From the IMG/VR virus record IMGVR_UViG_2585427757_000006: 64,000 bases of DNA, one strand, 5' to 3'. The stretch is from a virus. Taxonomy: Duplodnaviria > Heunggongvirae > Uroviricota > Caudoviricetes. The first letter of the stretch is position 1, and each line of letters starts with the position of its first letter. Positions 24,620 to 48,609 of the stretch are shown here, piece after piece. The translations under genes were made by a program, and so were the position numbers. The notes below the pieces were generated by a model, which was given only the letters and a program-made list of their open reading frames with translations, was not told where the DNA came from and searched no databases.

Positions 24620-25189
24620 TCAAATGAGAGACTTAAGAACATCGCGCACCTGGCGGAACTGATCTGTTTGCATACCGGTATGGATGACAGCCACCGCATC
24701 AGCCAAATGTTCGTTTTTGTTCACGAGAACATCCTGTCCAGATTGCTTACGACGCAGCCACGGTTCTTTAGGGTGTTTTTTCGTAGCCCACTGGATAATC
24801 TCTTCTTTCGATGTAGTAAGTTTATTGCCGACAAAATGCTTGATTTCGTTTGGAGTAACCTGGATCAATGGCTTATCCACACACGCAAGTACACCGATAC
24901 AAATACCGTAAGACGTCTGCGAACGAGAGTTTTGGCTCCCAACCGGTAGCTCACAAAAAACCATATTTGCCTTATCAATGATTGGCTTCGCAACACGCCA
25001 TATTTCACTGGCTCGGCGCAGATCGTCACTGTTCACACGAACGGTCTTTTTGTTACTCCCCGCTTTAGTCTCAACAAGAGTAAGGCCGTGAATCTCAAGT
25101 TCGTCCGTCTCAAGGTCTAAAGTGCCCACAGCAAGCCCAAAGTTGCTCATTGAGGGATCAACACCAACTACGCTGATTTTTTTACTCAT
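24620..25189 (-). CDS. RuvC-like Holliday junction resolvase
   Basis: VVGVDPS, FCELP, EHLADAVAVIHTG spacing resembles the RuvC catalytic acidic residues. Confidence 0.55.
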   Translation of the reverse strand: MSKKISVVGVDPSMSNFGLAVGTLDLETDELEIHGLTLVETKAGSNKKTVRVNSDDLRRASEIWRVAKPIIDKANMVFCELPVGSQNSRSQTSYGICIGVLACVDKPLIQVTPNEIKHFVGNKLTTSKEEIIQWATKKHPKEPWLRRKQSGQDVLVNKNEHLADAVAVIHTGMQTDQFRQVRDVLKSLI

Positions 25190-25198: not shown

Positions 25199-25942
25199 TT
25201 ACCATGTTCCCCATATAGGGTTTTCCAATAATCTCGCCTCCAACGAATTGGCTACTATTGCCGTTTGCAACGTTGGTTGGGGATAGTTTGCAAAGTCTGA
25301 ATACTCATTTTCCTGCGTGACACGTTTATCTGCGGTATGTTTAACACCACTTGCTATGAAATGACGCATGATGCCCAACAGCCTCCGACTGTCTGCACTA
25401 TCGTTTGCTAAAACATGAGGGAGCTGAAGTTCGATTTCTACCATTTCTCCATACTTACCAACAAACTGTAGTTTGTCCGCACTGTACTTTTTATCCCTCC
25501 TTTGGATAAGGAAACCAGTAAAAGCATCACCTGGCGATGCCAAACTATCCACCCGCTTATTGGCAAGTCGAATAAGGTTCGTGAAAGCCATACAGTGATG
25601 CGCACCCATTCCCCCAAAGAACCCTTCGCTATTAATGTTAAGATCTTCAGTTTCATGGGATGCAATAAACCCAGGCCCGACGTTGGGAAGATATCCCCCC
25701 TCAACAAAAGGATTAATCAGGATCGGCGCAATACATCCAGGTGGTAGTGATTTCAAACTTTGCATCAATGGTGTCTCGGATATTAGACCAAGCAACGCGG
25801 CGAATTGTACTCCGTCAATATTGTTGCTGCCCCATAGAATACGTGGAGCCGCACCATTGGAAGTATGCCCATTGATCAGTTTTATCGACTGCATCACTGC
25901 AAATACCTGCAAAAACTGCGAGCGGCTTAATTTAAACGACAT
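25199..25942 (-). CDS. hypothetical protein
   Basis: 247-aa ORF overlapping sbcC-like stop. Confidence 0.4.
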   Translation of the reverse strand: MSFKLSRSQFLQVFAVMQSIKLINGHTSNGAAPRILWGSNNIDGVQFAALLGLISETPLMQSLKSLPPGCIAPILINPFVEGGYLPNVGPGFIASHETEDLNINSEGFFGGMGAHHCMAFTNLIRLANKRVDSLASPGDAFTGFLIQRRDKKYSADKLQFVGKYGEMVEIELQLPHVLANDSADSRRLLGIMRHFIASGVKHTADKRVTQENEYSDFANYPQPTLQTAIVANSLEARLLENPIWGTW

Positions 25943-27848
25943 AGCTGCGCCCCTCTTTAACTTCCAGCGTAATAGTTTCCCGGAACCATGACTTCATCTC
26001 TTTATGGGAGATAATCAGCACAGTACCTCGCTCGCGAGCTTTGGACTCCAGAATACCCATGAGGCGTTCAAGACCGGCTGTATCGAGTGCATCGTCAATT
26101 TCGTCGCCGATAAACAAATCGATGTTTTTACTCGCCCGGTTACTAACCAGATCCTGCAATGCCAAAGAACACGCAATGCGAACCTTCCGCTTCTCACCAC
26201 CAGAGAGGGTTTGGAACGACTTACTTGAACCTTTCTTCTGCACACTAATGTTGAATTTGTCGCGATACTCACCTTTTTTAGTGACATCCATCGTCGACCA
26301 CTCAGCAGTAATATTCCCGTCAGACAACGTATTGAGATACTCGGCAGTGCGTGTATTCAGGAAAGGCGTAACAGACGTCAAAATATGAGAACGCACCCCG
26401 GCAGGAGAGTAGACCTGACGAGCTTTTTCCAATAGCAACGTTTGTTCCTGAATAGCCTTCAACTCATCTTTTAAGGACTTGAAGGTAGACTTACTGGATA
26501 CCAGGTTATCTTCGTGTCTGGCGATAAGAGCAATAAACGGATTAATCTCTTTTGATATACGATCGACCTCAGTACGAGCACGAGTCACAAGAGACTCAAT
26601 AGCAACAACCTCCTTCTCACGATGACGCAAAGATGAGAGTTGTTTCGTAAGCTCTTCAATCCGGGCAATGATAGCCGTTACATCAGGTGTCGTTTTAACA
26701 AGGGCAGACTCAATGCTTAACGCTTTCTCAAGATTCGTTTTGTGTTTAGCCATTGCCTCTGCAAGTGTCTTCGCCTGACCAATTTCCTGACGTGCTTGTT
26801 CAATGAAATTCTCCTTCACCGTTGATAGATCTTCTTCGCAGTAGGCTTTGCCACAAGTAGGGCATGGTGATCCCACTTTAGTACCAACCTCTTCTGCTTT
26901 GGTCTTAAAATTACGCGCGCGGCTCATTGCATCAGCCTGACTATTTTCTGTAGCTTTGATGCTTGCCCGAATATCAGTTATCGCACCACGAACTTTGAGC
27001 AACTTGGCGTCATGTTCTTCTTTTGAGGCTAACTTTTTGCGCTCACTTTCGATTGCCTTCTCGGTATCACGGATCTGTTCGGGAAGAGTGCGGATCTCAA
27101 GTTCAACTTCCGTTAACTCAACTTCGGCACTGGCCAGCCCAGCCAGGGCATCGTCATAACGTTTAGAACGCTCTTGCTCCCATGATTCAGAGGAGGCTTT
27201 CGCTGACTCAATTTCTGACTGTGTTGCCTCAATGGTCGAGATTGTCGACTCCAATTTGGTTTTAACCACATCCATACGTGCGGCAGCTGCATTAGCTCGC
27301 TCACGAGCAATAGCGTAGGCGCGTGTCAGTCTGTCAACGCCAGCGGCTTCTTCTACGATGGTTTTGAGGTTTTTGTCGGACATTCCAGGTAAATCTGGCA
27401 TAGCTTCTTGGCTCGCATAGATGGAAGCCATGAAAACCTCTTTAGATGCACCGATCAGACGCTCGACGAACTCTTGCGTCAGCGCATCTTTGCCTTTCGT
27501 CATATCGCCGTCTTCACCACGAACGATAAGCCGATTTTTGAACTCTTTGTGTTTACGGTGACGAATGATCGCATATCTCTTGCCTTCATCCTCGATGGTT
27601 ACTGCAACACGACAGTTCTTTTCATGGTCGGTAGACAACACATCGTCCCCCTTCACACCATGAGCTGTTTCGCCATAAAGACACCACATCAGGCTATTCA
27701 TTAGCGTTGACTTTCCAGAGCCATTACTTGATGCGGAACTATCATCACTATTAACACCCTGAATGAGCACTAAACCACGCTGATCTAACTCGACCTCCGC
27801 GCTGGCGATAGCCATAAAATTCTCAACCTGGAGCTTTAAAAACTTCAT
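25932..27848 (-). CDS. SbcC/Rad50-like recombination ATPase
   Basis: Walker A NGSGKST, long coiled-coil with CPTCG zinc hook, signature LSGGEKRKV, Walker B LFIGDEIDD. Confidence 0.8.
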   Translation of the reverse strand: MKFLKLQVENFMAIASAEVELDQRGLVLIQGVNSDDSSASSNGSGKSTLMNSLMWCLYGETAHGVKGDDVLSTDHEKNCRVAVTIEDEGKRYAIIRHRKHKEFKNRLIVRGEDGDMTKGKDALTQEFVERLIGASKEVFMASIYASQEAMPDLPGMSDKNLKTIVEEAAGVDRLTRAYAIARERANAAAARMDVVKTKLESTISTIEATQSEIESAKASSESWEQERSKRYDDALAGLASAEVELTEVELEIRTLPEQIRDTEKAIESERKKLASKEEHDAKLLKVRGAITDIRASIKATENSQADAMSRARNFKTKAEEVGTKVGSPCPTCGKAYCEEDLSTVKENFIEQARQEIGQAKTLAEAMAKHKTNLEKALSIESALVKTTPDVTAIIARIEELTKQLSSLRHREKEVVAIESLVTRARTEVDRISKEINPFIALIARHEDNLVSSKSTFKSLKDELKAIQEQTLLLEKARQVYSPAGVRSHILTSVTPFLNTRTAEYLNTLSDGNITAEWSTMDVTKKGEYRDKFNISVQKKGSSKSFQTLSGGEKRKVRIACSLALQDLVSNRASKNIDLFIGDEIDDALDTAGLERLMGILESKARERGTVLIISHKEMKSWFRETITLEVKEGRSYVV

Positions 27849-28077: not shown

Positions 28078-29163
28078 TCACACAGCCTCCGAACTCTCCG
28101 CTTCGGTGAGGATTTCCTGACACAAAATATCCAACTTGCTCAGATCAAATCCGCCGTCAGTATCGTGGACAATCTTGCAATAAGCAGATACCGACTCTCC
28201 CAGGCTATCGATTTTGCTGGTTTCCGTTGTGCTTGCTGTCCCTTCCATCATTGATGACTTACGGATGAAGTTGCACACGACACCTTTTGCACCCATTGTT
28301 TTGAGGATGTTCTGGTACTTAATGCCTTCTTCATCGTTCTCAATTACGGCGCGGAAACGCACGTAGTTGCCGCGAATTTGGTCATCGGCAACATAATCTT
28401 CCAGGTTAATGAATTTAGGCGCACTGGTTTCGTAGTGACTGAAACTGCCGTCCGGGTTTACGATCATGTAACCAGCCAGAGATCCAACATCTCCCCAATT
28501 TTGATGGGTCAGCGCACCGACACTGATAACTCCAGGAATGACCTCTTTGTGGTTGTGGTAATGCCCACTAAGCACGAGACGAAAGCCGATATCCTTTAAC
28601 TCCTGCGCATCGATACCGACGTCAGGCATTGTTGGAATGGCTTTGTTAATGGATGTATGGATAACAACGTCATGGTTATCACCTTCTACGCTCTTACGTA
28701 ATGCTTTCAGATCGCTGATAAGCTCCGCATGATTGTTACGCCAGCTAATCAGGTGGACAGTCACATCACCAATTTTTATTGAGTGTGGGCGCTTGCCACA
28801 TACGATTACCACGCCGATAGAACTCAGCGATGCTGCTGCGTTGGCGCTATATACTGAATCGTTGGTTTCAAGATCGTGATTACCGGCCAGCATTACTACT
28901 GTCAGATCAAGCTCGTTGATAATCCACTTGTACGTTTCAGTTACGTAATGCAAAACAGAAGGGGACACAGTTCCTCGGACGTGAAATGTATCACCGGCAA
29001 CCAACATGTACTTACAACCGGCCTTCTTCATGGCGATGGCTGCTTCTTTCGTTGCTTCCAACTGTATTTCAAGTCTGGAGTTAAGCCCCTCTGCGTTCGT
29101 CGTGGAGAACGCATCCCATTTGTGGTAGTGGCAGTCAGAAATGACGCCGTATGGCAAAGTCAT
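28078..29163 (-). CDS. SbcD/Mre11-like nuclease
   Basis: Calcineurin-like phosphoesterase motifs DCHYH, GDTFH, GNHD, GHYH. Confidence 0.8.
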   Translation of the reverse strand: MTLPYGVISDCHYHKWDAFSTTNAEGLNSRLEIQLEATKEAAIAMKKAGCKYMLVAGDTFHVRGTVSPSVLHYVTETYKWIINELDLTVVMLAGNHDLETNDSVYSANAAASLSSIGVVIVCGKRPHSIKIGDVTVHLISWRNNHAELISDLKALRKSVEGDNHDVVIHTSINKAIPTMPDVGIDAQELKDIGFRLVLSGHYHNHKEVIPGVISVGALTHQNWGDVGSLAGYMIVNPDGSFSHYETSAPKFINLEDYVADDQIRGNYVRFRAVIENDEEGIKYQNILKTMGAKGVVCNFIRKSSMMEGTASTTETSKIDSLGESVSAYCKIVHDTDGGFDLSKLDILCQEILTEAESSEAV

Positions 29164-30365: not shown

Positions 30366-30383
30366 AATGACAAAGGTGTCCAC

Positions 30384-33159: not shown

Positions 33160-36994
<3,835 letters not shown>

Positions 36995-37008
36995 AATTGT
37001 AAATTCCC

Positions 37009-38172: not shown

Positions 38173-38181
38173 ATTCGCGTC

Positions 38182-39462
38182 CTATTGCTCAACCATTTCT
38201 GGGGTGATTTTTATTTTTCCTGTCACGGCGCTGTTGATCAGGGTGGTTTTGTATTCTTTAAGCTTTTCAATCTGCGACTTTTGGATATCAATCGTGCGAT
38301 TCAGATCTGGCTCAATTCCTTCAATGAACGAAATTATTTCTTGAATTTCATCTTTTGGTGGCACTGGAACCAATACACTTGCAAGACGATCCCTTGTTAA
38401 TTTTGGCTGTGCCGCACCAGAAATATATACCGTATAGTCCAATCCGCTTAATAATTCGGCCCAGTATTTAAAACCATGAAATTTTGGCTTAATAATATGT
38501 GCATGGTTATTCACCCAATACTTTCCAGTTGCAACAAAAGCCAATGGTGTTGACTTGCTTAGCAAATTCGCGCCATCTTCAGCGATCAAGATTAAATCTT
38601 CATCAAAGATGTAGTCATCAACATAATCGATAACACCACTTGCTCCGTAATACGGATATACGCCCTGTCTCGACTCTCTCTCAACTGCGCTTATTGGAAC
38701 TCTTCTACTGTTAAGAAACTCAAACGCATATCTCAATGACATTAAGTTCCAATGCGCTGGAATCTTACCAATCCAATCCACACCGGAGTCTTTCATTGGC
38801 ACATTGGGATCAAGCCCTTGGGTCACCGCCTGTTGGATGATGATCTGCTTACGCTCTTTCAGCAGGCTAATTTGCTGCTCTTTGATCGAAATCGCTTCGT
38901 CGATTAGAGCGGTTTTCTTGTCGAGAAAATTTGCAATTAGGGACTGCTCTTCTTCTGAAGGCAGAACAAAAGGAATCACCTTCATCCGTGCTTTTGAAAG
39001 GTCCCACTGACCAATCCTTACACCATCTGATGCACTACCAAAAAACGATACATATAACTTACTGCGTATCGCCCAATTGAAAAACTCAGGATTTATTGCC
39101 TTTGTAAAATCAAAAATAAAATACGCAGGACTTACAATTCCAGTGAACTTTGATACACCGTAAGAACCCTGCCACGCTTTCATTTTATTCATTCCAAATT
39201 GACCTTTCTCAAGCTTTTTATAGCCGCTAAGATCATCTGGTATAAAATTGTGATTTGACTCTTGATTATCCACGTCTCTCTCGATAACACCTTGTTCGCG
39301 TGTTATCGAAAGTAGTGGCAATTCAGGGCAGTTTTTGACCGACACCGGAGATAGGCACGAGCCTAACTTAACCAAGTCCCAATGCTCTGGAATCTCGCCA
39401 ATCCACTCATAACCAGAGTCACTATATTGATCATACTTTAGCGTTGAGGTAATGCTTTCCAT
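38182..39462 (-). CDS. hsdS: type I restriction-modification specificity subunit
   Basis: 426 aa, two-repeat architecture with conserved central and C-terminal helical spacers; 1-nt overlap with hsdM stop. Confidence 0.8.
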   Translation of the reverse strand: MESITSTLKYDQYSDSGYEWIGEIPEHWDLVKLGSCLSPVSVKNCPELPLLSITREQGVIERDVDNQESNHNFIPDDLSGYKKLEKGQFGMNKMKAWQGSYGVSKFTGIVSPAYFIFDFTKAINPEFFNWAIRSKLYVSFFGSASDGVRIGQWDLSKARMKVIPFVLPSEEEQSLIANFLDKKTALIDEAISIKEQQISLLKERKQIIIQQAVTQGLDPNVPMKDSGVDWIGKIPAHWNLMSLRYAFEFLNSRRVPISAVERESRQGVYPYYGASGVIDYVDDYIFDEDLILIAEDGANLLSKSTPLAFVATGKYWVNNHAHIIKPKFHGFKYWAELLSGLDYTVYISGAAQPKLTRDRLASVLVPVPPKDEIQEIISFIEGIEPDLNRTIDIQKSQIEKLKEYKTTLINSAVTGKIKITPEMVEQ

Positions 39463-41891
39463 TAGGCTTCTCCCTGAACTTCCGCCACTTTCACGCCTAA
39501 TATTTGTGCAATCAAACCATCAGCCTTCTGCTCTAGATTGATAATGTCAGTTGCTACTTCTTCAAGACTACGTAATGGCTTATGCAGATAGAAATACTTA
39601 TTGAAGCTGATTTCATAGCCAATTTTTACCGTATCTAGGTTTATCCATGCTTCATCGACATGAGGCTTCACTTCATCTAGGAAGTACTGGTAAATGCTTT
39701 GCTTTAATGGAACAGATTCTGTATCTCGCAGGTCTGAATTGGTCTCGTAAGTGATATACTCGCCTTTTTTACCGCCTTCTGCTGAAGGAACGGGGTAATA
39801 ACCAAAATCTGGCAAGTCAGCGACTTCACACTCATAGCGCTCCAGCAGGTCGTTTAATTTATCACCCGTTAATTTAACTACCTTTTTAACCACTTTCTTG
39901 GCGGTTTCGTCATACCAGCTCACCGCGTGAAGAATGGCATTTTTCTCAGGTGCTGAAAGCTTAATAGCATGGGCTTTTAGCGATTTATCAACTTGGGTTT
40001 TAAAGCTATTGAAGTCATCAAATTCAATGCTACCGATGTCAGCCATCAGCGTTTGTGCAGTTTCAAGCAATGCTTTTAGCGCCAGCCAGTGTTTCACATC
40101 AAGCAGTTTGGCCTTAGCCTTAGCATTGAGACTGATGTCGTTATCTTCACACCAAGAAAGAATGTCTTTCTCGATGGATTTTAAGAAGCTCTTTTTCTGA
40201 TCTGACCCGTAGCCAGTTTTTTCGTAAACACGTTCGCCGTGCTCTGCGTACACGTACTCCATCACTTCACTAAGTTGCTTATCAAAACGCAGTGGGGCTA
40301 TGGCATCTTGAGTAAACTTGGCTTTGCGGCGATCTGGGCGCTCGATAGTGACTTTGTAGTAGCCAAAATCGTCATTGCTGAATACCTTACTGGCGATGCC
40401 AACAGGATCATTGTTTGCATCCAGTGCTCTTTCAACATCCTTACACGCGAGGTAAGTATCGGTAATTTCCGTGATGTGCTCAGGCGCAAATTCGCAGTTT
40501 TTGTTACCTAAGTTCTTGCGCAACTTACGGTAGAGCAAGCTGGCATCAATTAATTGCACCTTACCTTTACGCGCCTCAGGTTTATTGTTGCTCAACACCC
40601 AAATGTAAGTGGTAATGCCAGTGTTATAGAACAGGTTATTAGGTAACTGAACGATGGCATCTAGCATGTCGTTTTCAATGATGAAGCGACGAATATTACT
40701 TTCACCACCGCCCGCATCTCCGGTAAAGAGCGATGAGCCGTTATGAACAGAGGCAATCCGGCTGCCTAATGGACTTACGCTCGGATCTTTCATCTTGTTG
40801 ACCATCTCCATTAAGAAAAGCAGCTGGCCATCACTCGAACGTGGCGTGGCATCCACCACTTCGAGATTTCCCCAATAGTCTTTCAGGCTAACCTTAAAAC
40901 GCGGGTCAATCACATCACTGCCGTCTTTAATGTACTTCTGTTCAGACGCCCAACTCTTACCGTATGGCGGGGTAGACAACATAAAGTCAAAGCGTGAAGC
41001 CGCAAACTCGTCGGTAGACAAGGTTGAGCCTACCTTGATGTTCTCAGGGTTGTTACCTTTGATCATCATGTCCGATTTACAAATCGCGTAGGTCTCGTCA
41101 TTGATCTCTTTGCCGTAAAGGTAAATATCTCGGCTGTCGTTCGGGTATTTCTCTTCAATGAAGTTTTGAGATTCAGTGAGCATACCACCGCTACCACACG
41201 CAGGGTCGTAAACGGTCATGGTCAATGGTAGCTGCTCTTTCACTGGGTCAAAAACCAAGTGTGTCATCAGCTCAATCACTTCCCTAGGTGTAAAGTGCTC
41301 ACCGGCTTCTTCGTTATTCTCCTCGTTGAACTTACGGATCAACTCTTCGAACACGTACCCCATACCCAGGTTAGTAAGGGCTGGCATCTTGTTGCCATCT
41401 GGGTCTTCGATCGTTTCATGAGTTAAGTTGATGTAAGGGGAAACAAACTTTTCGACGACATCAAGAAGGACTTGCTTTGAGGCCATGTGACGAATTTGCG
41501 ACTTGAGGTTAAAGCATTCAATGATTTCTTTAACATTATCGCTAAAGCTAAGCAGGTACTCTTCAAAGTTGGCGAGTAATATCTGTTGGTTATTCGTTGC
41601 GGTGTTGAACAGGGATTTCAGGGTCCATTTAGATGTATTGTAAAAAACATAACCACTAGCCGCCTTCAATGGTTCATCATCAAGCTCCGTGGCTTGCATC
41701 TCTTCTTTTTGGAACTTGACCTCTTCAAGCACGGCTTCTTTGGTGGGTTCAAGTAACGTATCTAAACGTCGTAATACCACCATAGGTAAAATCACATCGC
41801 GGTACTTACCGCGAACGTACACATCACGTAAACAGTCGTCGGCAATGTTCCATATAAATGAGATGAGCTTGTTATGTACACTATGATCCAT
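39462..41891 (-). CDS. hsdM: type I restriction-modification N6-adenine DNA methyltransferase
   Basis: N-terminal FIWNIADD, motif I PACGSGGML, motif IV LSTPPYG; start set at MDHSVHN. Confidence 0.85.
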   Translation of the reverse strand: MDHSVHNKLISFIWNIADDCLRDVYVRGKYRDVILPMVVLRRLDTLLEPTKEAVLEEVKFQKEEMQATELDDEPLKAASGYVFYNTSKWTLKSLFNTATNNQQILLANFEEYLLSFSDNVKEIIECFNLKSQIRHMASKQVLLDVVEKFVSPYINLTHETIEDPDGNKMPALTNLGMGYVFEELIRKFNEENNEEAGEHFTPREVIELMTHLVFDPVKEQLPLTMTVYDPACGSGGMLTESQNFIEEKYPNDSRDIYLYGKEINDETYAICKSDMMIKGNNPENIKVGSTLSTDEFAASRFDFMLSTPPYGKSWASEQKYIKDGSDVIDPRFKVSLKDYWGNLEVVDATPRSSDGQLLFLMEMVNKMKDPSVSPLGSRIASVHNGSSLFTGDAGGGESNIRRFIIENDMLDAIVQLPNNLFYNTGITTYIWVLSNNKPEARKGKVQLIDASLLYRKLRKNLGNKNCEFAPEHITEITDTYLACKDVERALDANNDPVGIASKVFSNDDFGYYKVTIERPDRRKAKFTQDAIAPLRFDKQLSEVMEYVYAEHGERVYEKTGYGSDQKKSFLKSIEKDILSWCEDNDISLNAKAKAKLLDVKHWLALKALLETAQTLMADIGSIEFDDFNSFKTQVDKSLKAHAIKLSAPEKNAILHAVSWYDETAKKVVKKVVKLTGDKLNDLLERYECEVADLPDFGYYPVPSAEGGKKGEYITYETNSDLRDTESVPLKQSIYQYFLDEVKPHVDEAWINLDTVKIGYEISFNKYFYLHKPLRSLEEVATDIINLEQKADGLIAQILGVKVAEVQGEA

Positions 41892-42123
41892 TTTCTTTTC
41901 CTGTTCAGTGTTGGTTGCACCCCACAAAGTTGCTGCAACGGCTTCACTATAAATTTAAAATTCTGTTCTTTCTGTAACGCCTAAATGGCCTCTACATCGT
42001 TCGATTAACTTGTTCTACCCGGCGCTAGATTTAAGTTTATGACACCATAAAGTGAATCGCCACAGGTTTAATAGACTGAATCGCCACAGGTTTAACAGAC
42101 ACCTCAGAGTCATTTAAGATGAC

Positions 42124-42315
42124 TTAAAGAGAGGTGTACAGCTCGGTATTCAGACCAGTCCACTGACGGCCAACGCCGACAACTTCACCGATACCTTTGT
42201 CTTCACCCAATTTGTTTACTTTGATGCCAACGTACCCAGGCTCAACACGATCGCAGCCTGTAAGACCCATTGTGCAAACAGCAGCCACGATCACTGCCAG
42301 TAAACCTTTCTTCAT
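42124..42315 (-). CDS. small lipoprotein
   Basis: Lipobox MGLTGC after a signal peptide; 63 aa. Confidence 0.45.
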   Translation of the reverse strand: MKKGLLAVIVAAVCTMGLTGCDRVEPGYVGIKVNKLGEDKGIGEVVGVGRQWTGLNTELYTSL

Positions 42316-42318
42316 TAC

Positions 42319-42519
42319 TTACTTCCCCTTCGAATTAATTAGTGACTTCAGAAAGTTACGACCAACATTAAAGCCGATAACAGGAGCGCCAAAAGCAACA
42401 ATGATTCCAAGCATTACGGCAATATCGCTTTTAGCCGAGATCAGCGACGGAACCAGCAAACAGTAGATGAAAACTACAGATATACCTGTAGCCACTGCCA
42501 TCAGATAGAGTTTGATCAT
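42319..42519 (-). CDS. small two-helix membrane protein
   Basis: 66-aa hydrophobic ORF. Confidence 0.4.
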   Translation of the reverse strand: MIKLYLMAVATGISVVFIYCLLVPSLISAKSDIAVMLGIIVAFGAPVIGFNVGRNFLKSLINSKGK

Positions 42520-42609
42520 GTGTTTTCCTATGTGGCTATTGTGTGTAGATGGTGAGTAAGTGTTTATATATTTTCAAGGTATAAAGGCGTCCATTCGGAC
42601 GCCTGAAAA

Positions 42610-43683
42610 TTAATCTTCTAATTCATCTGTCGGTGATGTCTTCTCGCGCCTGTCATCTATTGCCTGTAACGCAGCAATGATTTCAGCTAATGGCTTCTCC
42701 CGGTACATCTCGACGATCTGTGATTTGGTGTATTTCTTCTCGCCAATTTCCACACGCCCGCTGGCGCTCTTGGGCAGGTATCCTTCCTCCAGCATGTATT
42801 CAACCAGAGACTCGACGACGTCCAGCCCGCGAGTCGGGTCGAAGTAGAATTTCCATGAGCATTTGCCAAACGGAGGCGCGACTTTGTTTTTAATGCACTC
42901 GGCGCCAACGTCCTGTCCGATCTTCTCTTTGCCATCCTTCATGACGGATGCACCCAGACGGATGCGCACCGACGCGTAGAACTTCGGAGAGTCGCCACCC
43001 GGAGACGTAGTCGGATCGCCAAACATCACACCAATTTTGGTACGCACCTGGTTCAAGAAGATGATGCACGCGTTGTACTTACGCGCCCAAAGCGCCAGAG
43101 TAGGGAAGTTCGCACTTGTCGCGCGCGCCAGCGCCGTGTTGTCGTTCATGTTCAGCTGATCTTTGTCTTTCGCAGTGCCTTCTGCCATCTTGTCGAACTT
43201 CTCAGCCTTCGAGTTCGGAACCATCGACGCCAGAGAGTCGGCTACGATGCAGATAGGGGCTGTTTCCGGAATAAGCTCTTCGTCGCGCACCAGCTTGAGG
43301 ATTGTGCCGATCAGCTCTACGGAGTCTTCGAAGGTATCCGGCTGTTTGTAGACCCACTGACCGTCATCCTCATCTGCGTTCAGGCCATTGGCTACAGCCA
43401 GGCCAACGTCAAAACTGTTTTCATGATCGAGGAATACCGCCAGACCATCTTGTTTTTGAGCGGAGATCATCGCTGCTGTTGCAAGGAACGTTTTCCCTGC
43501 ACTTGGAGGACCGAATACTTCGACGATACGACCACATGGGAAGCCGCCATCGTAACGACCAGAAATAGCTTTGTTTAACGGTGGAAAGCCTGTATCAATC
43601 CAATGAGTTACTTTCTGAATTTCGTCGTTGCTACCGATTTTCTTTTTCAGAGCAAGTGCCAGTGCGGATTTTCCTTTTGCCAT
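42610..43683 (-). CDS. RecA/UvsX-like recombinase
   Basis: Walker A GPPSAGKT, RecA-like core, acidic C-terminal tail. Confidence 0.7.
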   Translation of the reverse strand: MAKGKSALALALKKKIGSNDEIQKVTHWIDTGFPPLNKAISGRYDGGFPCGRIVEVFGPPSAGKTFLATAAMISAQKQDGLAVFLDHENSFDVGLAVANGLNADEDDGQWVYKQPDTFEDSVELIGTILKLVRDEELIPETAPICIVADSLASMVPNSKAEKFDKMAEGTAKDKDQLNMNDNTALARATSANFPTLALWARKYNACIIFLNQVRTKIGVMFGDPTTSPGGDSPKFYASVRIRLGASVMKDGKEKIGQDVGAECIKNKVAPPFGKCSWKFYFDPTRGLDVVESLVEYMLEEGYLPKSASGRVEIGEKKYTKSQIVEMYREKPLAEIIAALQAIDDRREKTSPTDELED

Positions 43684-43685
43684 GA

Positions 43686-43958
43686 TCAGGCTCCTTTTGT
43701 TTCGTTGATTCGTTTTAAAGCGGCGGATTCGTCGAATACAATCGCATCGTGGTTAAGGAGTCTGGATACACGAGCGAGGATTTTTACGACCTGCTCGCTG
43801 ACTAATCCAAACTCGCGATCTGTCGCTTTCATTCCGGCAGCGCCTAGAATTGACGGCAGTGCGATGACAGCGTACTCACCGTGATAAAAGACAATCTCTT
43901 TTGCCAGTTGGGCAGGGGTGGTTGTAGCGCCATTGATAATCGATTTAAGCATTAGCAA
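43686..43958 (-). CDS. hypothetical protein
   Basis: 90-aa ORF in operon. Confidence 0.35.
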   Translation of the reverse strand: MLMLKSIINGATTTPAQLAKEIVFYHGEYAVIALPSILGAAGMKATDREFGLVSEQVVKILARVSRLLNHDAIVFDESAALKRINETKGA

Positions 43959-44947
43959 TACCTTTCGAATGGAAGAACAAACACTTCAAGGTCTTCAAGG
44001 AACGAACGGAAATTCAGCTCGTAGCACAGTTGCTCGAATGCTTTCACGTCACGATTGCCTTTGATTGTTTCGATTTCGGTAGGCGGAAACTTCGTCTCAA
44101 TCAGGTTCATTAGCGTGATGTTTCTCTTGAACGCTTCGAGCATTCGACAGCCTGTTTTCTCGTTGAAGGCATTCTTCGCTAGTTTGTTGAAGGCGGTCTT
44201 ATGGCGTCCTTTGTCAACCACGATTGAGCCGTCGTTGATGCCGCGTACCATCGTTGCGACACTTCCCCATTCATGCAGCAGCTCTTTCGCACCGCCAGCA
44301 CCAATGCCACCAACACCGCTAATGTTGTCCGATTTATCGCCTTGTAATGCTTTTGCTTCCAAAAATGCGCGAGGAGTAGCGAATCCTGTCAGCTCCGCAA
44401 ATTGCTCAAAATTAACCTGCTTGTTTTTGGCGTCTTCGCGCAGGCTTACCCAGCTTACGTTTTCGCGAACTAACTGAAGCCAGTCGCTATCGCCTGTTAA
44501 CAGATAGATGTGTTCAACGATTGGCTGCGGTGCAATGCTGGCTACCAGCAGCCCGGCCAGATCATCCGCTTCTGCATCTTTTGCAATGAGTTGGGTAACT
44601 CCAAGCGCGGTCATCATTTTGAGGATGTATGGCTTCTGGATAGCAAAGCCTTCCTTCATCTTTTTCATATCAGGATCGTCGTCGCGATTTGCTTTGTAGT
44701 CCGGGTAAAAGTCGCGACGCTTGTCACTAAATCCATCCCAAAGAATCATAGGTCGGGCATGGAGGATGGAGGCATAACGACGGACGTTCTTAACAAAGCC
44801 GAAAGCAGCCTGTACTTCCATTTCGCCGTTGTGCAATTTGTCAGATTGTTGGTGGTAATAACCCAGGCTATTGCCATCTACGAAGAGATAATTCACCGGT
44901 ACATTCCTTCCAAAAAGTAAGGCGTCCGTAGACGCCTTACTGGTCAC
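43952..44947 (-). CDS. 5-prime to 3-prime exonuclease / flap endonuclease
   Basis: Acidic clusters VDGNSLGY, AEADDL, LTGDSDW and helix-hairpin-helix LQGDKSDNISGVGGIG. Confidence 0.8.
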   Translation of the reverse strand: MTSKASTDALLFGRNVPVNYLFVDGNSLGYYHQQSDKLHNGEMEVQAAFGFVKNVRRYASILHARPMILWDGFSDKRRDFYPDYKANRDDDPDMKKMKEGFAIQKPYILKMMTALGVTQLIAKDAEADDLAGLLVASIAPQPIVEHIYLLTGDSDWLQLVRENVSWVSLREDAKNKQVNFEQFAELTGFATPRAFLEAKALQGDKSDNISGVGGIGAGGAKELLHEWGSVATMVRGINDGSIVVDKGRHKTAFNKLAKNAFNEKTGCRMLEAFKRNITLMNLIETKFPPTEIETIKGNRDVKAFEQLCYELNFRSFLEDLEVFVLPFERYC

Positions 44948-44956
44948 GTAATGGGA

Positions 44957-45985
44957 TTACAGAGAGTCCAGCTCTCTCAGTAGGTCATCCAGACCTTCAT
45001 CTTCCGTCGCAGATGCGGCTGCTACAGATGTCGCTGCGACTGCTTCAGACTCTTTGACTGATACTGCAACGGCAGCGGGACTTGCTTCTGGTTTAAATTC
45101 AGTTTCAACGGCACGGAGGATTTCTTCATCAACCAGACTGGTTGGTTCAGAAGCTGGGGTATGAGCGGTAGCTACAGCAGTCGCACCCTCCGTATGACCA
45201 GTGACAGAGCCAAATCCAGGTAGTGCCGCAGCCGATGTTTTCGCGGTTGAGGAAATTGCTGGTGCAGATGCTGCGGCAGTTGGTGCAGCGATGCCAATCA
45301 GACGACCCATAGTGCGAACTGTCGACAGAAGACGAGTTTCATCAGCCTGATTTGCGTATGCGATCAGATCATGCTGGGTGTTCCAGAATTTATCTTCGAT
45401 ATCGCCTTTGTAGACTTTACGCTTAGGCGAGACGTCATATTTGGTATCGCGACCAGAGCCAGTACGTTTAATCAGGAATGCGTAGCCTTCCTCTTTGCTC
45501 AGTGGATTGCCGATATCATCAGCGATGTCTTCGGTGATTGCTTTGCAGATATCATCGAATACAGTAGACGGCAGCTCGATTAACTGGCATTTCTCAGCAT
45601 CTGCGAAATCCTCACGAGCAGAAAGAATGCCGTTGACCAGGTAGCGAGGAGTGGCACGCATTTGACCGATGCGTTCTTCCATTGCTTTGTTACCCTTGTG
45701 ACGAGCGCGACCTTCCATCACCATTTCGCATAGCTGACAAGCGCGACCGTGAGTATGTTGCTCACAAATATAAGCGTTGGTTGCTTCTTTACCTTCCTCG
45801 TTCTGATACTTAACGTAGTGCATACCGAAAGTCTGGAAGAACTTACCGTTTGGGTCGTCTTTATTCGGGAAGATGCGGATATAGTTGACGCCGTCTTTTA
45901 AGCGAGTCAGATCAACGTTGTTACCACGTTTGGCGGCAATGTCTTCACGAGTTTTGTTAAGCAAATCAAGTAATGTCTTAGACAT
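44957..45985 (-). CDS. putative single-stranded DNA-binding protein with zinc motif and acidic tail
   Basis: CEQHTHGRACQLC zinc-like motif, A/S/T-rich linker, acidic C-terminus EDEGLDDLLRELDSL. Confidence 0.5.
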   Translation of the reverse strand: MSKTLLDLLNKTREDIAAKRGNNVDLTRLKDGVNYIRIFPNKDDPNGKFFQTFGMHYVKYQNEEGKEATNAYICEQHTHGRACQLCEMVMEGRARHKGNKAMEERIGQMRATPRYLVNGILSAREDFADAEKCQLIELPSTVFDDICKAITEDIADDIGNPLSKEEGYAFLIKRTGSGRDTKYDVSPKRKVYKGDIEDKFWNTQHDLIAYANQADETRLLSTVRTMGRLIGIAAPTAAASAPAISSTAKTSAAALPGFGSVTGHTEGATAVATAHTPASEPTSLVDEEILRAVETEFKPEASPAAVAVSVKESEAVAATSVAAASATEDEGLDDLLRELDSL

Positions 45986-46102
45986 GTGTTTCTCCTTGTT
46001 GTGATTTGGCCGATGGCGCTATGCGCGTTGGGCTTTCGTTCATTCGTGGCTCTTTCGAGCTGTTAAATGATAGATCAGTACTTACTTATTATCTATCAAA
46101 AA

Positions 46103-46558
46103 TCAACGGGGAGTAATAAAGCGTTCAGAGCCTAATCGCTCTAATTCAACGATGGCCATCTTTGACGCCTGAACGATCATGTCTCGGCGATGCGAAAAGG
46201 CGGCGACAGCATGTTTGTATATGTCTGCGATGTGCCGTGCTTCATCCAACTTCTGCCTTTTAGACAGATACTGTGGGTTTGTTTTAACCTTAGCGTCCAG
46301 TACAGATTCGTTGAACTTAATGCCGTTCATACTCAAGTTCTTACGCTCTGTGTCGTATAGCTTTGCTTCAACAGCTTCAAGGTTAAGTTTTGCCTCTGCG
46401 ACACTTCTTTCTGCATGAGCGAGTTTTGAGCCATACTCCATTAAAAGGCGGGGTTGTCTACGCCAGACTTCCTCCAGATTGTCTCGGTCAAACTCGAGAT
46501 CAGACATTATTTTCTCGTAAATATCGGCGATCATGCACATTTCCTTATCACTTATCAT
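46103..46558 (-). CDS. hypothetical protein, possibly UvsY-like recombination mediator
   Basis: 151-aa coiled-coil protein adjacent to the SSB-like and RecA-like genes; similarity only suggestive. Confidence 0.3.
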   Translation of the reverse strand: MISDKEMCMIADIYEKIMSDLEFDRDNLEEVWRRQPRLLMEYGSKLAHAERSVAEAKLNLEAVEAKLYDTERKNLSMNGIKFNESVLDAKVKTNPQYLSKRQKLDEARHIADIYKHAVAAFSHRRDMIVQASKMAIVELERLGSERFITPR

Positions 46559-46660
46559 TTTGTATTGATTATATCATTGTAATGATGAGGCAATGAGCTT
46601 GAAGATAGGGGGGGTGAGGGGATAAGGGAAAACATGGCCTTTATGGCCATGTTTATTGGA

Positions 46661-47830
46661 TCACGTCTTAATAGTTTCTGCTACGTCGGCTAATATCGCT
46701 TCTAGTCGTTCTCCCTCTTCAGGTCTGAAGTAAAGAATGTTGGGGTTAAACCCGTAAAAGACAGTAACGTCAAGGTCTGGAAGATACTCCTTCCTGCCGA
46801 CCAAATCGGATGGCTTGTTTTTGTTGTTAAACAATGAAGTTGCCCGGCTGCCACACGTCAGCACATAGGTCGGACGCACCAGATTGATCTCTTCACGCAT
46901 AAAGTCGGTGAACTGGCCGATCTCGTCTTTGGTGTAGTCTTTTTCTTTGTCTTTAACCTTCTTGCAAACACCTGTGACATAGAGATCGCCCATGCGTAAA
47001 TCTCCAGCCGTCAATAGCTTGGCCTTAAAGTCGTCGTATCCGTTCTCCATAAAGTAACCGGTTCGAGCATCATTGCCGTTCGCATTGTCCAGAATGATCA
47101 TGATTTTCGGCTTAATACCAATGCTGGGGCGGATTAGTTCATCACCTAAGCCCATTTCAGCCGCCATCCGCGTCATGAGTACGTTAATTTCAGCCGAACG
47201 TTTGGGGTTCATCTCAAACGGACGTGAGGCTTTAACTGCGTCTATGACAAGGTTTCCCATCAATTCAGCCTGGTCGCGTAGGCGCTCTGGATCAGTTGCT
47301 GGCAGACTGCCTGGCTCGATGGATGCAAACGCCCCTACTTTTTGCAGCGATTCGCGCACTCGACTATTACAGGCACGTTTCTCGACAGCTTCTTCGAATT
47401 GCGCCAGTGACTCGAATTTGCCGCCAACTTTTTCTCGCGCTCTCATGATGGCTTGGCAGCCATTCTCAGAACACCCCTTCACAGCAGAGAAGGGCGCATA
47501 CAGCACCTGGCTGCCATCTTCAAGCGTGCGGATCTCGATTCGGTTAGATGACACGTTAACGTCTGGTGGCAATACGCGAATGCCATAGGTCAGCGCATCT
47601 TTAACCAGCCCCTGGTGTTTATCTTCGCCAAGAATAGTGAGAGCAGCAGCGAAAAACTCTGCGGGATAATGAGTTTTCAACCACATAGATTGATAACTGA
47701 TTAAGGAGTAAGCAACAGAGTGTGATTTGTTGAAGGCATACGCGCCGGATTTCTCAAACATATTCCAGATTTCTTCGGCTCGTTCGTGCGTCAGGCCATT
47801 GCTCTCTTCGACAACACCGGTAATTTTCAT
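46661..47830 (-). CDS. dnaE: DNA polymerase III alpha (DnaE-like) C-terminal fragment
   Basis: AYAFNKSHSVAYSLISYQSMWLKTHYPAEFFAAAL matches the DnaE finger region; own start codon overlapping the HNH gene stop. Confidence 0.75.
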   Translation of the reverse strand: MKITGVVEESNGLTHERAEEIWNMFEKSGAYAFNKSHSVAYSLISYQSMWLKTHYPAEFFAAALTILGEDKHQGLVKDALTYGIRVLPPDVNVSSNRIEIRTLEDGSQVLYAPFSAVKGCSENGCQAIMRAREKVGGKFESLAQFEEAVEKRACNSRVRESLQKVGAFASIEPGSLPATDPERLRDQAELMGNLVIDAVKASRPFEMNPKRSAEINVLMTRMAAEMGLGDELIRPSIGIKPKIMIILDNANGNDARTGYFMENGYDDFKAKLLTAGDLRMGDLYVTGVCKKVKDKEKDYTKDEIGQFTDFMREEINLVRPTYVLTCGSRATSLFNNKNKPSDLVGRKEYLPDLDVTVFYGFNPNILYFRPEEGERLEAILADVAETIKT

Positions 47831-48561
47831 GCAGTCACCTCATCAATCTTCACGAACTCATCCCCATTGGAGGCCAGCCAGTTCCGTTGGCGCTCCCAGC
47901 TCCATATCTCTTCACGCATTTCACTATGCAGGCGAATGTGGGCGTCTTCTGGAAGTGCTACAAGATTCCCAGGGGCGTTATCTATCGTATCGCGGTTAAT
48001 ATGGTGGACATGTTCATCGTCACGTAGCTCCCGACCGAGACGTTCTTTCGCTATCAATCGATGAACGTATTCGTATTGCGAAACGCCATTGTTACCAACC
48101 AGCTGCATCATGTAGCCGTTGGTTTTTACGATGATGCCACCTTTGTAGTTGTTCGCTTCTTCTCCGATCTTTCCGCGTTTGGCAGCCGCCAGCTTTTCCT
48201 TCGTCTCCGCGCGGATTGTTCTGCCGGTTAGCTTTTTCGAAACGGTGGCCACTCGCTCATCGATATCAGCACGCAGACCGGCATTCCACGAGGTTTTCCC
48301 ATACATAGGGTTGCCAGTGCCAGTCCGGGCTTCGGAGAGACGCTTCATACGTTCGTCATTATTTTTGTTTTTGCCACGATTCCAGGCTGGGGTAGCGGAG
48401 ATCCGCGCGCTTCCGCGCCTGATCCCCCATTTGGCTAATAAGCGGTCAATATTTGCCTTGCTGCAACCAGCTTCGGCGGCAATGTCTTCTTTTCTCATCA
48501 GGTCAACCATGTAACGCTGACGTAACCATTCTTCTGTGATTTTGTACTTCGTACTCGGCAT
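47827..48561 (-). CDS. HNH homing endonuclease with NUMOD-like repeats
   Basis: EHVHHINRDTIDNAPGNLVALPEDAHIRLH HNH motif; NPMYGKTSWNAG repeats; own promoter-proximal motif. Confidence 0.8.
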   Translation of the reverse strand: MPSTKYKITEEWLRQRYMVDLMRKEDIAAEAGCSKANIDRLLAKWGIRRGSARISATPAWNRGKNKNNDERMKRLSEARTGTGNPMYGKTSWNAGLRADIDERVATVSKKLTGRTIRAETKEKLAAAKRGKIGEEANNYKGGIIVKTNGYMMQLVGNNGVSQYEYVHRLIAKERLGRELRDDEHVHHINRDTIDNAPGNLVALPEDAHIRLHSEMREEIWSWERQRNWLASNGDEFVKIDEVTA

Positions 48562-48609
48562 TTCTAAGACTCACTAAACAAATTGTTTTCTTATCTTATA
48601 AATTAATTC

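What the first reader, a model, noticed from the sequence alone, without database searches (positions are those of the whole stretch)
42610..46558. Self-contained recombination toolkit
RecA-like recombinase, flap endonuclease, SSB-like protein with zinc motif and acidic tail, and a possible mediator are contiguous. SbcCD-like and RuvC-like genes lie at 24620-29163. The element may perform recombination-dependent replication or repair independently of the host. The proposed roles of the SSB-like and UvsY-like proteins are weakly supported.
Basis: partly seen in the sequence, partly recalled or inferred. Interest (0 to 1): 0.35.

Follow-up and report, generated by a model that had tools for sequence, protein, structure and literature searches.

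The report
T4-type recombination genes in phage-plasmid
This stretch of an SSU5-like E. coli phage-plasmid carries a conserved operon for a RecA-type recombinase, a T4 gp32-type single-strand DNA-binding protein, a distant UvsY-type loading factor and a flap nuclease, an ordinary module that a 95%-identical public phage record already labels the same way.

Summary
All the ORFs sit at the stated coordinates on the minus strand.

- **342-aa protein:** a full-length member of the gp32 family. It scores 224.7 bits against PF08804; T4 gp32 itself scores 226.4. It has the C-x8-C-x2-C zinc motif and the same C-terminal LDDLL tip as T4 gp32.
- **151-aa ORF (probably 143 aa):** a remote UvsY homologue.
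  - The AlphaFold model (pLDDT 90.9) has T4 UvsY chains as its 19 best PDB matches, with TM up to 0.93.
  - A profile-profile comparison with T4-type UvsY gives E 4e-5 over 116 collinear columns.
  - The order uvsY-like, gp32, exo, recA persists in relatives at about 30% identity.
- **Other genes:** RecA (closer to bacterial RecA than to UvsX), a T5-type flap endonuclease, SbcC, SbcD and a RuvC-like resolvase are also confirmed.

The window is 100% identical over 42000-47000 to E. coli plasmid pRHB17-C18_2. It is about 95% identical to phage Cyrano, whose record already carries the labels RecA, gp32-like SSB, exonuclease and UvsY.

The most likely role is homologous recombination for DNA repair and replication during lytic growth, as in T4. 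That role, and independence from the host, are inferred. Nothing here is new in kind, so interest is low.

The parts
42610..43683 (-). RecA-family recombinase, 357 aa, intein-free allele
   Evidence: Pfam RecA E 9.7e-43 and phrog_97 'UvsX-like recombinase' E 4.6e-92. Matches PDB RecA chains at about 1e-35, against T4 UvsX 3io5 at 7.7e-6. The Walker A loop GPPSAGKT is visible in the sequence. TIGR02012 scores 156.5 bits, below its 325.3-bit equivalog cut-off.
43686..43952 (-). Small conserved ORF (88 aa from the second Met; 90 aa to 43958), function unknown, packed between the exonuclease and recA
   Evidence: phrog_2207, unknown function, E 5e-54. Homologues were found only in SSU5-like enterobacterial elements. 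It is absent from the syntenic module of a distant relative. The AF2 model is mediocre (pLDDT 79; the other four models about 50) and has no PDB fold match.
43952..44947 (-). 5'-3' exonuclease / flap endonuclease (T5 D15 type)
   Evidence: PF02739 E 1e-23 and PF01367 E 5e-12, both above cut-off. The best solved relative is the T5 5'-exonuclease 1exn, E 1e-15. Relatives annotate a 314-aa product, which would start at 44896.
44957..45985 (-). gp32-family single-strand DNA-binding protein, 342 aa
   Evidence: PF08804 scores 224.7 bits over the whole 208-position profile; T4 gp32 scores 226.4 bits. phrog_1192 SSB, E 7e-116. The motif C74-x8-C83-x2-C86 (positions as printed) aligns with T4 C77/C87/C90. 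An Ala/Ser-rich linker and a C-terminal tip ...GLDDLLRELDSL match T4 ...DLDDLLNDL.
46103..46534 (-). UvsY-like recombination mediator candidate, 143 aa (longest ORF runs to 46558, 151 aa)
   Evidence: phrog_2058 (unknown function) E 1.6e-69 and phrog_231 'UvsY-like recombination mediator' E 1e-4 over nearly the full length. The AF2 model has pLDDT 90.9. The top 19 Foldseek PDB hits are all T4 UvsY, with TM 0.67-0.80 on the query and 0.75-0.93 on the target. 7 of 62 family members hit Pfam UvsY. hhalign against T4-type UvsY gives E 4.1e-5, probability 70%, 116 columns. Synteny with gp32 and RecA is kept in distant relatives.
46560..46660 (-). Intergenic region upstream of the uvsY-like gene: a hairpin after the dnaE C-part stop, then a possible extended -10 promoter (TGATATAAT)
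   Evidence: Read directly from the sequence. The consensus scan did not list it, so this is inference only.
28078..29163 (-). SbcD / Mre11 / gp47-type nuclease subunit
   Evidence: phrog_100, E 2.4e-92. Pfam Metallophos, E 8e-10.
25932..27848 (-). SbcC / Rad50 / gp46-type ATPase subunit
   Evidence: phrog_77, E 4.5e-165. Pfam AAA_23 and SMC_N. NCBIfam Rad50/SbcC partial hits.
25199..25942 (-). Unassigned 247-aa gene between SbcC and the RuvC-like gene
   Evidence: phrog_2117, unknown function, E 7.6e-127. No Pfam or NCBIfam hit.
24620..25189 (-). RuvC-like Holliday-junction resolvase candidate, 189 aa
   Evidence: phrog_159, E 1.6e-57. Acidic residues appear in RuvC-like positions by eye: GVDPS D11, CELP E80, HLADA H161/D164. 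No Pfam, NCBIfam or PDB sequence hit.

Best explanation
This is the homologous-recombination module of an SSU5-like (pHCM2-type) temperate phage-plasmid of E. coli. It is a four-gene operon plus one small unknown gene, built on the T4 presynaptic plan.

The proposed pathway is as follows:
1. The gp32-type protein coats single-stranded DNA.
2. The UvsY-type mediator helps the recombinase displace gp32 and form a filament.
3. The RecA-family recombinase carries out homology search and strand exchange.
4. The T5-type flap endonuclease trims 5' flaps and primers.
5. About 13 kb away, the SbcCD (gp46/47-like) nuclease resects double-strand ends.
6. A RuvC-like enzyme resolves the junctions.

Together with the element's own DnaE-type polymerase, ligase and ribonucleotide reductase, the module most likely serves three purposes during lytic growth after induction: double-strand-break repair, restart of broken forks, and recombination-primed replication or concatemer formation.

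What is shown: gene identities, family membership and conserved synteny. What is inferred: the order of action, the timing and independence from the host.
For: - **Identity of the element:** 100% identical over 42000-47000 to plasmid pRHB17-C18_2, about 95% to phages Cyrano, PhiR41_1 and CMS-2020a, and 82% to SSU5.
- **Family assignments:** RecA, gp32, FEN, UvsY-like, SbcC, SbcD and RuvC-like.
- **Operon packing:** the gaps and overlaps are tight, and each gene has a Shine-Dalgarno sequence.
- **Conserved synteny:** the order dnaE, uvsY-like, gp32, exo, recA (followed by SbcD and SbcC) is kept in metagenomic relatives with about 25-32% identical UvsY-like proteins.
- **gp32 C-terminal tip:** LDDLL is conserved from T4 to these elements. 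From general knowledge of T4, the acidic C-terminal domain of gp32 binds partner proteins.
- **Independent annotation:** the Cyrano record carries the same four labels.
- **Literature:** Pfeifer et al. 2021 list RecA-like proteins and resolvases among the persistent genes of the SSU5 supergroup (PMC7969092). Cyrano is induced by genotoxic stress, and CYRAN_52-55 are not in that paper's table of genes expressed above background during lysogeny (PMC9928086). This fits a lytic-phase role, but only weakly.
Against: - There is no functional data for any of these proteins.
- The window's UvsY-like protein does not reach the Pfam UvsY model on its own, and an HMM of close homologues finds nothing in the PDB by sequence. 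The hhalign probability is only 70%.
- The T4 ssDNA-binding residues K58 and R60 do not line up with basic residues in that alignment.
- The recombinase is RecA-like rather than UvsX-like, so a UvsY-RecA partnership is assumed, not shown.
- I identified no UvsW- or gp59-like helicase or loader, so a full T4-style recombination-dependent replication pathway is not documented.
- The RuvC-like call rests on one PHROG family plus residues read by eye.
Confidence: 0.8

Rival explanations
1. The module mainly serves the plasmid (lysogenic) state. It would repair and restart forks on the roughly 110-kb low-copy replicon and process multimers, rather than drive lytic replication.
For: The element replicates as a plasmid, with RepA/Rep3 at 30264-31478 and ParA at 6250-7350. 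Cyrano is kept at about 5.5 copies per cell (PMC9928086). The module lies beside the plasmid replication region.
Against: CYRAN_52-55 are not in the table of Cyrano genes expressed above local background in lysogeny, while the neighbouring hicAB genes are. Distant relatives keep the module next to dnaE, nrdA and cobST-like phage genes, with no Rep gene between recA and sbcD. The host already supplies RecA, SSB and RecFOR for this job.
Confidence: 0.12
2. The 143-aa protein is not a recombination mediator. It would be a helical-hairpin protein with another role, for example a replisome accessory factor for the adjacent DnaE, whose resemblance to UvsY is convergent.
For: No direct Pfam UvsY hit. 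hhalign probability is 70%, not above 95%. Long helical hairpins are a simple fold. Many relatives carry the domain at the C-terminus of 290-420-aa proteins of unknown function. The gene sits directly downstream of dnaE.
Against: The 19 best PDB matches are all UvsY, at full length and with rmsd down to 1.3 Å; the next, unrelated hits drop to TM 0.2-0.5. UvsY is the only Pfam family hit by more than one of 62 members. Conserved positions D12/D13 and Y34/W35 coincide in the alignment. Linkage to gp32 and/or RecA holds in four of the four informative contexts.
Confidence: 0.1
3. The module is kept chiefly because it supports the spread of the element's own homing endonucleases and inteins, or because it drives gene exchange between co-resident phage-plasmids. 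General replication and repair would be secondary.
For: Homing elements are frequent in exactly these genes. There is an HNH endonuclease inside dnaE in this window, a LAGLIDADG intein in recA of Cyrano and many plasmids, and a NUMOD4 endonuclease between uvsY-like and gp32 in a distant relative. From general knowledge, homing needs homologous recombination.
Against: Homing elements are parasites of essential, conserved genes, so their presence argues that these genes are important, not that the genes exist for them. Intein-free and endonuclease-free alleles, including SSU5's intact dnaE and this window's recA, keep the same module.
Confidence: 0.05

Closest known systems
Phage T4 presynaptic system UvsX-UvsY-gp32, with gp46/47, RNase H and endonuclease VII
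   Same: The same division of labour and, for three parts, the same protein families. These are the gp32-family SSB with zinc motif and LDDLL C-terminal tip, the UvsY fold, and the Rad50/Mre11-type nuclease pair. There is also a RecA-superfamily recombinase and a 5' nuclease of the FEN family.
   Different: The recombinase is much closer to bacterial RecA than to UvsX. The mediator is only remotely related to T4 UvsY, at 13-17% identity in the structural alignment. The 5' nuclease is nearest to T5 D15. The resolvase candidate is RuvC-like, not endonuclease VII. In T4 the genes are scattered, whereas here four are in one operon. The host element is a temperate siphovirus that lives as a plasmid and uses a DnaE-type polymerase.
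Recombination genes of SSU5 / pHCM2 / Cyrano-type phage-plasmids (SSU5 supergroup)
   Same: It is the same module. This window is 82-100% identical at the DNA level with identical gene order. The Cyrano record OV696614.1 already names RecA, Exonuclease, 'SSB T4 gp32-like' and 'UvsY recombination mediator'.
   Different: Only allelic differences. There is no intein in recA. There is no hicAB or other cassette between uvsY-like and dnaE. dnaE is split by an HNH endonuclease gene. A type I restriction-modification cassette is inserted just downstream of recA in place of the SPFH gene.
Bacterial RecA with RecFOR mediators and SSB
   Same: A RecA-type filament protein that must be loaded onto SSB-coated ssDNA by a mediator.
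   Different: The SSB is the gp32 type, not the OB-fold tetramer of bacterial SSB. The mediator has the UvsY fold, not RecO/RecR. All of it is encoded by the mobile element.

Membership tests
UvsY recombination mediator (Pfam PF11056; T4 UvsY, PDB 4zwq-4zwt) | Sequence match to the family profile at the curated threshold | tested here: not met
   No PF11056 hit for the window protein, even at E up to 10. T4 UvsY scores 179.5 bits. Weaker links exist: phrog_231 E 1e-4, 7 of 62 family members hit PF11056 with best E 7e-5, and hhalign profile-profile gives E 4.1e-5 at 70% probability.
UvsY recombination mediator (Pfam PF11056; T4 UvsY, PDB 4zwq-4zwt) | UvsY protomer fold (short N-terminal helix, long helical hairpin, small connecting helix) over the full length | tested here: met
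   The AF2 model has pLDDT 90.9 and helices at 2-13, 20-69, 76-84 and 87-139. Foldseek ranks 19 T4 UvsY chains first, with probability 1.00, target TM up to 0.93 and rmsd 1.3-3.7 Å for most of them.
UvsY recombination mediator (Pfam PF11056; T4 UvsY, PDB 4zwq-4zwt) | Basic ssDNA-binding residues of the LKARLDY motif (T4 K58, R60; from my own knowledge of the T4 literature) | tested here: inconclusive
   In the hhalign alignment T4 K58 and R60 fall opposite D61 and E63 of the window protein, next to a 4-residue gap whose placement is uncertain. The nearly invariant K49 and R64 lie close by. No structure superposition was available.
UvsY recombination mediator (Pfam PF11056; T4 UvsY, PDB 4zwq-4zwt) | Heptameric ring assembly and binding to gp32 and the recombinase | not testable with these tools
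   Needs multimer modelling or biochemistry.
UvsY recombination mediator (Pfam PF11056; T4 UvsY, PDB 4zwq-4zwt) | Co-occurrence with a RecA/UvsX recombinase and a gp32-type SSB | tested here: met
   The gene is adjacent to gp32 and two genes from recA here, and the same holds in SSU5 and Cyrano. It also holds in the contexts of P0076, P0085, P0064 and P0098. The fifth context (P0140) ends at the contig edge.
gp32 single-strand DNA-binding protein (Pfam PF08804) | Full-length profile match above the gathering score | tested here: met
   224.7 bits against a cut-off of 26.8, profile positions 1-208 of 208. T4 gp32 scores 226.4 bits.
gp32 single-strand DNA-binding protein (Pfam PF08804) | Zinc-binding subdomain (T4 His64, Cys77, Cys87, Cys90; from my own knowledge) | tested here: met
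   C74-x8-C83-x2-C86 (positions as printed) aligns with T4 C77/C87/C90. The motif is present in all six relatives examined. The His ligand could not be assigned; the candidates are the His in GMHYV and the two His residues in CEQHTHG.
gp32 single-strand DNA-binding protein (Pfam PF08804) | Acidic C-terminal protein-interaction domain | tested here: met
   An Ala/Ser/Thr-rich linker ends in TEDEGLDDLLRELDSL; T4 ends in ADDTDLDDLLNDL. The LDDLL-type tip is kept in SSU5, Cyrano and distant relatives.
gp32 single-strand DNA-binding protein (Pfam PF08804) | Basic N-terminal cooperativity segment (T4 residues 1-21, KRKST) | tested here: inconclusive
   The N-terminus MSKTLLDLLNKTREDIAAKR has scattered basic residues but no KRKST-like run.
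RecA family recombinase (Pfam PF00154) | Profile match above the gathering score, with Walker A and B motifs | tested here: met
   146.9 bits against a cut-off of 27. GPPSAGKT and IVADS are visible. It aligns with E. coli RecA over residues 29-315.
Bacterial RecA orthologue (NCBIfam TIGR02012 equivalog) | Score above the equivalog cut-off | tested here: not met
   156.5 bits against a cut-off of 325.3. It is a divergent, phage-type RecA, not an orthologue of chromosomal recA.
T4 UvsX subfamily | Closer to UvsX than to bacterial RecA | tested here: not met
   T4 UvsX 3io5 gives E 7.7e-6 (28 bits) and UvsX 9gbg gives 4.2e-9, while RecA chains give about 1e-32 to 1e-35 (115-125 bits).
5'-3' exonuclease / flap endonuclease (PF02739 + PF01367) | Both domains above the gathering scores | tested here: met
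   84.3 bits against 34.3, and 46.6 bits against 40. The nearest structure is T5 D15 exonuclease 1exn, E 1e-15.
SbcCD / Mre11-Rad50 / T4 gp46-gp47 | Adjacent Rad50-type ATPase with split ABC head, and a calcineurin-like phosphoesterase | tested here: met
   phrog_77 and phrog_100. AAA_23, SMC_N, SbcC_Walker_B and Metallophos. Rad50 and SbcC N- and C-terminal hits. The two genes are 230 nt apart on the same strand.
RuvC-like Holliday-junction resolvase | Family profile match and the catalytic acidic tetrad | tested here: inconclusive
   phrog_159, E 1.6e-57. D11, E80, H161 and D164 are in plausible positions by eye. There is no Pfam, NCBIfam or PDB sequence hit, and no structure was predicted.

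The most novel reading that the evidence does not exclude
The 143-aa protein may represent a very large, almost unannotated branch of UvsY-type mediators: 2,708 cluster representatives at E<=1e-3, no Pfam model, and PHROG 'unknown function'. This branch would have adapted to load a bacterial-type RecA, rather than UvsX, onto gp32-coated DNA in temperate phage-plasmids and related phages. In many relatives the domain is fused to an N-terminal extension of about 150-280 residues with unknown function. If so, the UvsY mechanism is far more widespread, and less tied to T4-like lytic phages, than current annotation suggests.
Probability: 0.45. Interest if true: 0.35.

Novelty: already known. Interest (0 to 1): 0.15.

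Why it matters
The value is mostly in annotation.
- It settles the identity of two genes that most database records for these very common enterobacterial phage-plasmids still call 'hypothetical' or even 'regulator'.
- It shows that phrog_2058 and related unnamed families belong with UvsY.

SSU5-like phage-plasmids are widespread in E. coli, Klebsiella and Salmonella, and phage-plasmids can carry resistance genes (PMC9600943). Their own recombination machinery may therefore shape how they exchange genes and survive DNA damage. It does not reveal a new kind of system.

Tried and rejected
- **UvsY-like protein by sequence against the PDB:** a single-sequence phmmer search and an HMM of close homologues found nothing meaningful.
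- **Early hhalign runs:** the shallow alignment A1 and the broad alignment A2, each against the single T4 UvsY sequence, gave no significant match. Only the profile-against-profile run was informative.
- **Pfam scan of the 17 close homologues:** only scattered coiled-coil noise.
- **gp32-like protein against PDB sequences:** nothing, even at E 10. Pairwise BLASTP with T4 gp32 was weak (E 0.07) but aligned the Cys motif. Membership rests on the Pfam profile.
- **The search for related loci with the broad alignment A2:** I used the look-up of encoding contigs on representatives instead.
- **88-aa ORF:** no family beyond phrog_2207 and no fold match. I considered a RecA modulator of the DinI, RecX or PsiB kind, but nothing supports it.
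- **Group I intron as the cause of the dnaE split:** no Rfam family reached its gathering score between 40000 and 52000.
- **Tandem 18-mer at 42054-42095 as a transposon end:** no inverted copy exists elsewhere in the window.
- **Literature:** searches for SSU5 with UvsY, and for pHCM2 with RecA, returned nothing useful. One 2026 preprint on a phage-plasmid could not be opened.

Full report
**What is there**

The interval 42610-46558 holds five tightly packed minus-strand ORFs.
- A 357-aa RecA-family protein (42610-43683).
- A 5'-3' exonuclease (43952-44947).
- A 342-aa protein (44957-45985).
- A 151-aa ORF (46103-46558).

Close homologues of the last ORF are nearly all 143 aa. The internal ATG at 46534 has a good Shine-Dalgarno sequence (AAGGAA) and the first ATG has none, so the product is probably 143 aa. 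The exonuclease stop overlaps the start of the small ORF, and that ORF's stop lies 2 nt before the recA start. This layout fits one transcription unit.

**What the element is**

The 5-kb stretch 42000-47000 is 100% identical to E. coli plasmid pRHB17-C18_2 (CP057685.1). It is about 95% identical to Escherichia phages PhiR41_1, CMS-2020a and Cyrano, and 82% identical to Salmonella phage SSU5. At least 80% of it is present in 441 plasmid records.

The window is therefore part of an SSU5-like (pHCM2-type) phage-plasmid. Its neighbours include a Rep3-type initiator, ParA, NrdAB, thymidylate synthase, ligase, a DnaE-type polymerase and a CobT/AAA pair.

**The three easy assignments**

- **RecA.** Pfam RecA gives E 9.7e-43. 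The protein aligns with E. coli RecA over residues 29-315 and matches RecA structures at about 1e-32 to 1e-35. T4 UvsX (3io5) reaches only 7.7e-6. It falls below the NCBIfam RecA equivalog cut-off, at 156.5 against 325.3 bits. It is a divergent, element-borne RecA, not a UvsX and not a copy of host recA.
- **Exonuclease.** It has both FEN-type Pfam domains above threshold. Its nearest solved relative is the phage T5 D15 flap endonuclease.
- **Distal genes.** SbcC (25932-27848), SbcD (28078-29163) and a RuvC-like protein (24620-25189) are confirmed by PHROG and Pfam hits. The RuvC-like call has only PHROG support plus acidic residues in plausible places.

**The 342-aa 'SSB-like' protein**

This protein is a gp32-family member without reservation.
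- It covers all 208 positions of PF08804 at 224.7 bits; T4 gp32 itself scores 226.4 bits.
- Its C-x8-C-x2-C motif aligns with T4 Cys77, Cys87 and Cys90.
- After an Ala/Ser-rich linker it ends in GLDDLLRELDSL. T4 gp32 ends in DLDDLLNDL.
- Both the Cys motif and an LDDLL-type tip recur in the gp32-like genes next to distant UvsY-like genes.
- Direct sequence searches against the PDB failed, so membership rests on the profile and these motifs.

**The 151-aa 'mediator' candidate**

Direct tests were negative. There was no Pfam hit, and neither the single sequence nor an HMM of close homologues found anything in the PDB.

Four other lines agree on UvsY.
1. phrog_231 'UvsY-like recombination mediator' matches at E 1e-4 over nearly the whole length.
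2. An AlphaFold2 model built on 17 homologues has mean pLDDT 90.9. Its 19 best Foldseek hits in the PDB are all chains of T4 UvsY, with probability 1.00, target TM up to 0.93 and rmsd down to 1.3 Å. After them come unrelated helical proteins at TM 0.2-0.5.
3. An exhaustive HMM search found 2,708 representatives at E<=1e-3. Of 62 diverse members, seven hit Pfam UvsY (best E 7e-5), and UvsY is the only family hit more than once. A profile of these 62 aligns with a profile of 25 T4-type UvsY proteins over 116 collinear columns at E 4.1e-5 and 70% probability. The invariant D12/D13 and Y34/W35 coincide in that alignment.
4. Gene context supports the link.
   - A 32%-identical relative sits in the order dnaE, two small genes, uvsY-like, gp32, exo, recA, then SbcD, SbcC and nrdA.
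   - A 359-aa relative sits in the order dnaE, uvsY-like, NUMOD4 endonuclease, gp32, exo, recA.
   - Two short contigs show uvsY-like next to gp32, and uvsY-like next to a Cys-motif protein and then recA.

I conclude it is a remote UvsY homologue. Whether the T4 ssDNA-binding residues K58 and R60 have counterparts is unresolved.

**How it probably works**

By analogy with T4 (established knowledge of UvsX, UvsY, gp32 and gp46/47):
1. SbcCD resects broken ends.
2. gp32 coats the single strand.
3. The UvsY-like ring helps RecA replace gp32 and form the filament.
4. Strand invasion gives a D-loop that can prime synthesis by the element's DnaE polymerase.
5. The FEN removes flaps and primers, ligase seals the nicks and the RuvC-like enzyme resolves the junctions.

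Two observations fit a lytic-phase role. Cyrano is induced by genotoxic stress, and its copies of these genes are not among those reported as expressed above background in lysogens (PMC9928086). All of this is inference. Independence from the host is untested, and I found no UvsW- or gp59-type helicase or loader.

**Comparison with what is known**

The public Cyrano record already labels the four genes 'RecA', 'Exonuclease', 'SSB T4 gp32-like' and 'UvsY recombination mediator'. Pfeifer et al. 2021 list RecA-like proteins and resolvases among the persistent genes of the SSU5 supergroup (PMC7969092).

I found no paper that discusses the UvsY assignment. Most records, including the 100%-identical plasmid, call these genes 'hypothetical' or 'regulator'. 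So the finding is correct but not new.

The only mildly fresh points are the evidence trail for the UvsY link, the size of that unannotated family, and the pairing of a UvsY-type mediator with a RecA-type rather than UvsX-type recombinase.

**Verdict**

It is an ordinary, already annotated module of a well-known phage-plasmid family, and interest is low.

Noticed in passing
window 46661-50973 (-): The DnaE-type polymerase gene is split in two by a free-standing HNH/NUMOD3 endonuclease gene. The N part is 48610-50973 (787 aa, equal to SSU5 DnaE residues 1-776). The endonuclease is 47827-48561. The C part is 46661-47830 (389 aa, equal to SSU5 residues 784-1170), and its ATG overlaps the endonuclease stop. 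SSU5 has one intact 1172-aa gene. No Rfam intron family matched, so this looks like a gene split by a homing endonuclease whose two halves must work together.
   Followed up: partly
window 42610-43683 (-); L001 4478-6817: This window's recA is the intein-free allele. In phage Cyrano the same gene encodes 779 aa, with a 422-aa LAGLIDADG intein inserted between K64 and T65 of the Walker A loop (GPPSAGK|T). Many E. coli plasmid matches carry a roughly 1.27-kb insertion in the same stretch, annotated as a LAGLIDADG homing endonuclease, which is probably the same intein.
   Followed up: yes
window 33276-42315: A type I restriction-modification cassette lies immediately downstream of recA: hsdR 33977-36994, a DUF4268 gene 37009-38172, hsdS 38182-39462 and hsdM 39462-41927. 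An rve-type transposase fragment lies beside it at 33276-33962. SSU5 and Cyrano have an SPFH/stomatin-like lipoprotein gene at this position; only its first 63 codons remain here (42124-42315).
   Followed up: partly
window 41928-42140: The junction piece contains a tandem pair of GAATCGCCACAGGTTTAA (42054-42071 and 42078-42095). Parts of this 213-bp stretch match 1,195 of 5,426 complete E. coli genomes, mostly on chromosomes, and several unrelated phages such as SfIV. There is no inverted copy elsewhere in the window. It may be a repeated mobile-element end or a recombination site.
   Followed up: partly
window 46661-47830 (-); L006 6087-9431; L009 4549-7914: The C-terminus of the DnaE-type polymerase carries a uracil-DNA-glycosylase-superfamily domain (PF03167). 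The hit is weak here (E 0.0047) but is on record for the intact 1114-1121-aa polymerases of distant relatives. The polymerase-UDG-like fusion therefore appears to be a conserved feature of this phage group.
   Followed up: no
window 43686-43952 (-): An 88-aa ORF lies between the exonuclease and recA. It is conserved only in SSU5-like enterobacterial elements, is absent from the syntenic module of a distant relative, and has no family or fold match. Its position suggests a recombination accessory or regulator, but nothing supports a specific role.
   Followed up: yes
window 51154-54593 (-); L009 1-3131: A CobT-like VWA protein (702 aa) and an AAA_5 (CobS/MoxR-like) ATPase (411 aa) sit upstream of dnaE. 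The same pair is syntenic with dnaE, uvsY-like, gp32, exo and recA in distant metagenomic relatives, so it belongs to the conserved replication region even though it is labelled as cobalamin or porphyrin biosynthesis.
   Followed up: no
proteins P0080-P0215; phrog_1069, phrog_9245, phrog_4969: In many relatives the UvsY-like domain is the C-terminal ~115 residues of a 290-420-aa protein. The N-terminal part has no annotated family.
   Followed up: no
window 25199-25942 (-): A 247-aa gene of unknown function (phrog_2117) lies between SbcC and the RuvC-like gene and overlaps the SbcC stop. In a distant relative a 142-aa and a 195-aa gene follow SbcC in the same position.
   Followed up: no
window 17-1830 (+): An IS21-like pair lies at the left edge of the window: a transposase (339 aa as listed, N-terminus probably beyond the window start) and a DnaC/IstB-like ATPase (265 aa).
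   Followed up: no
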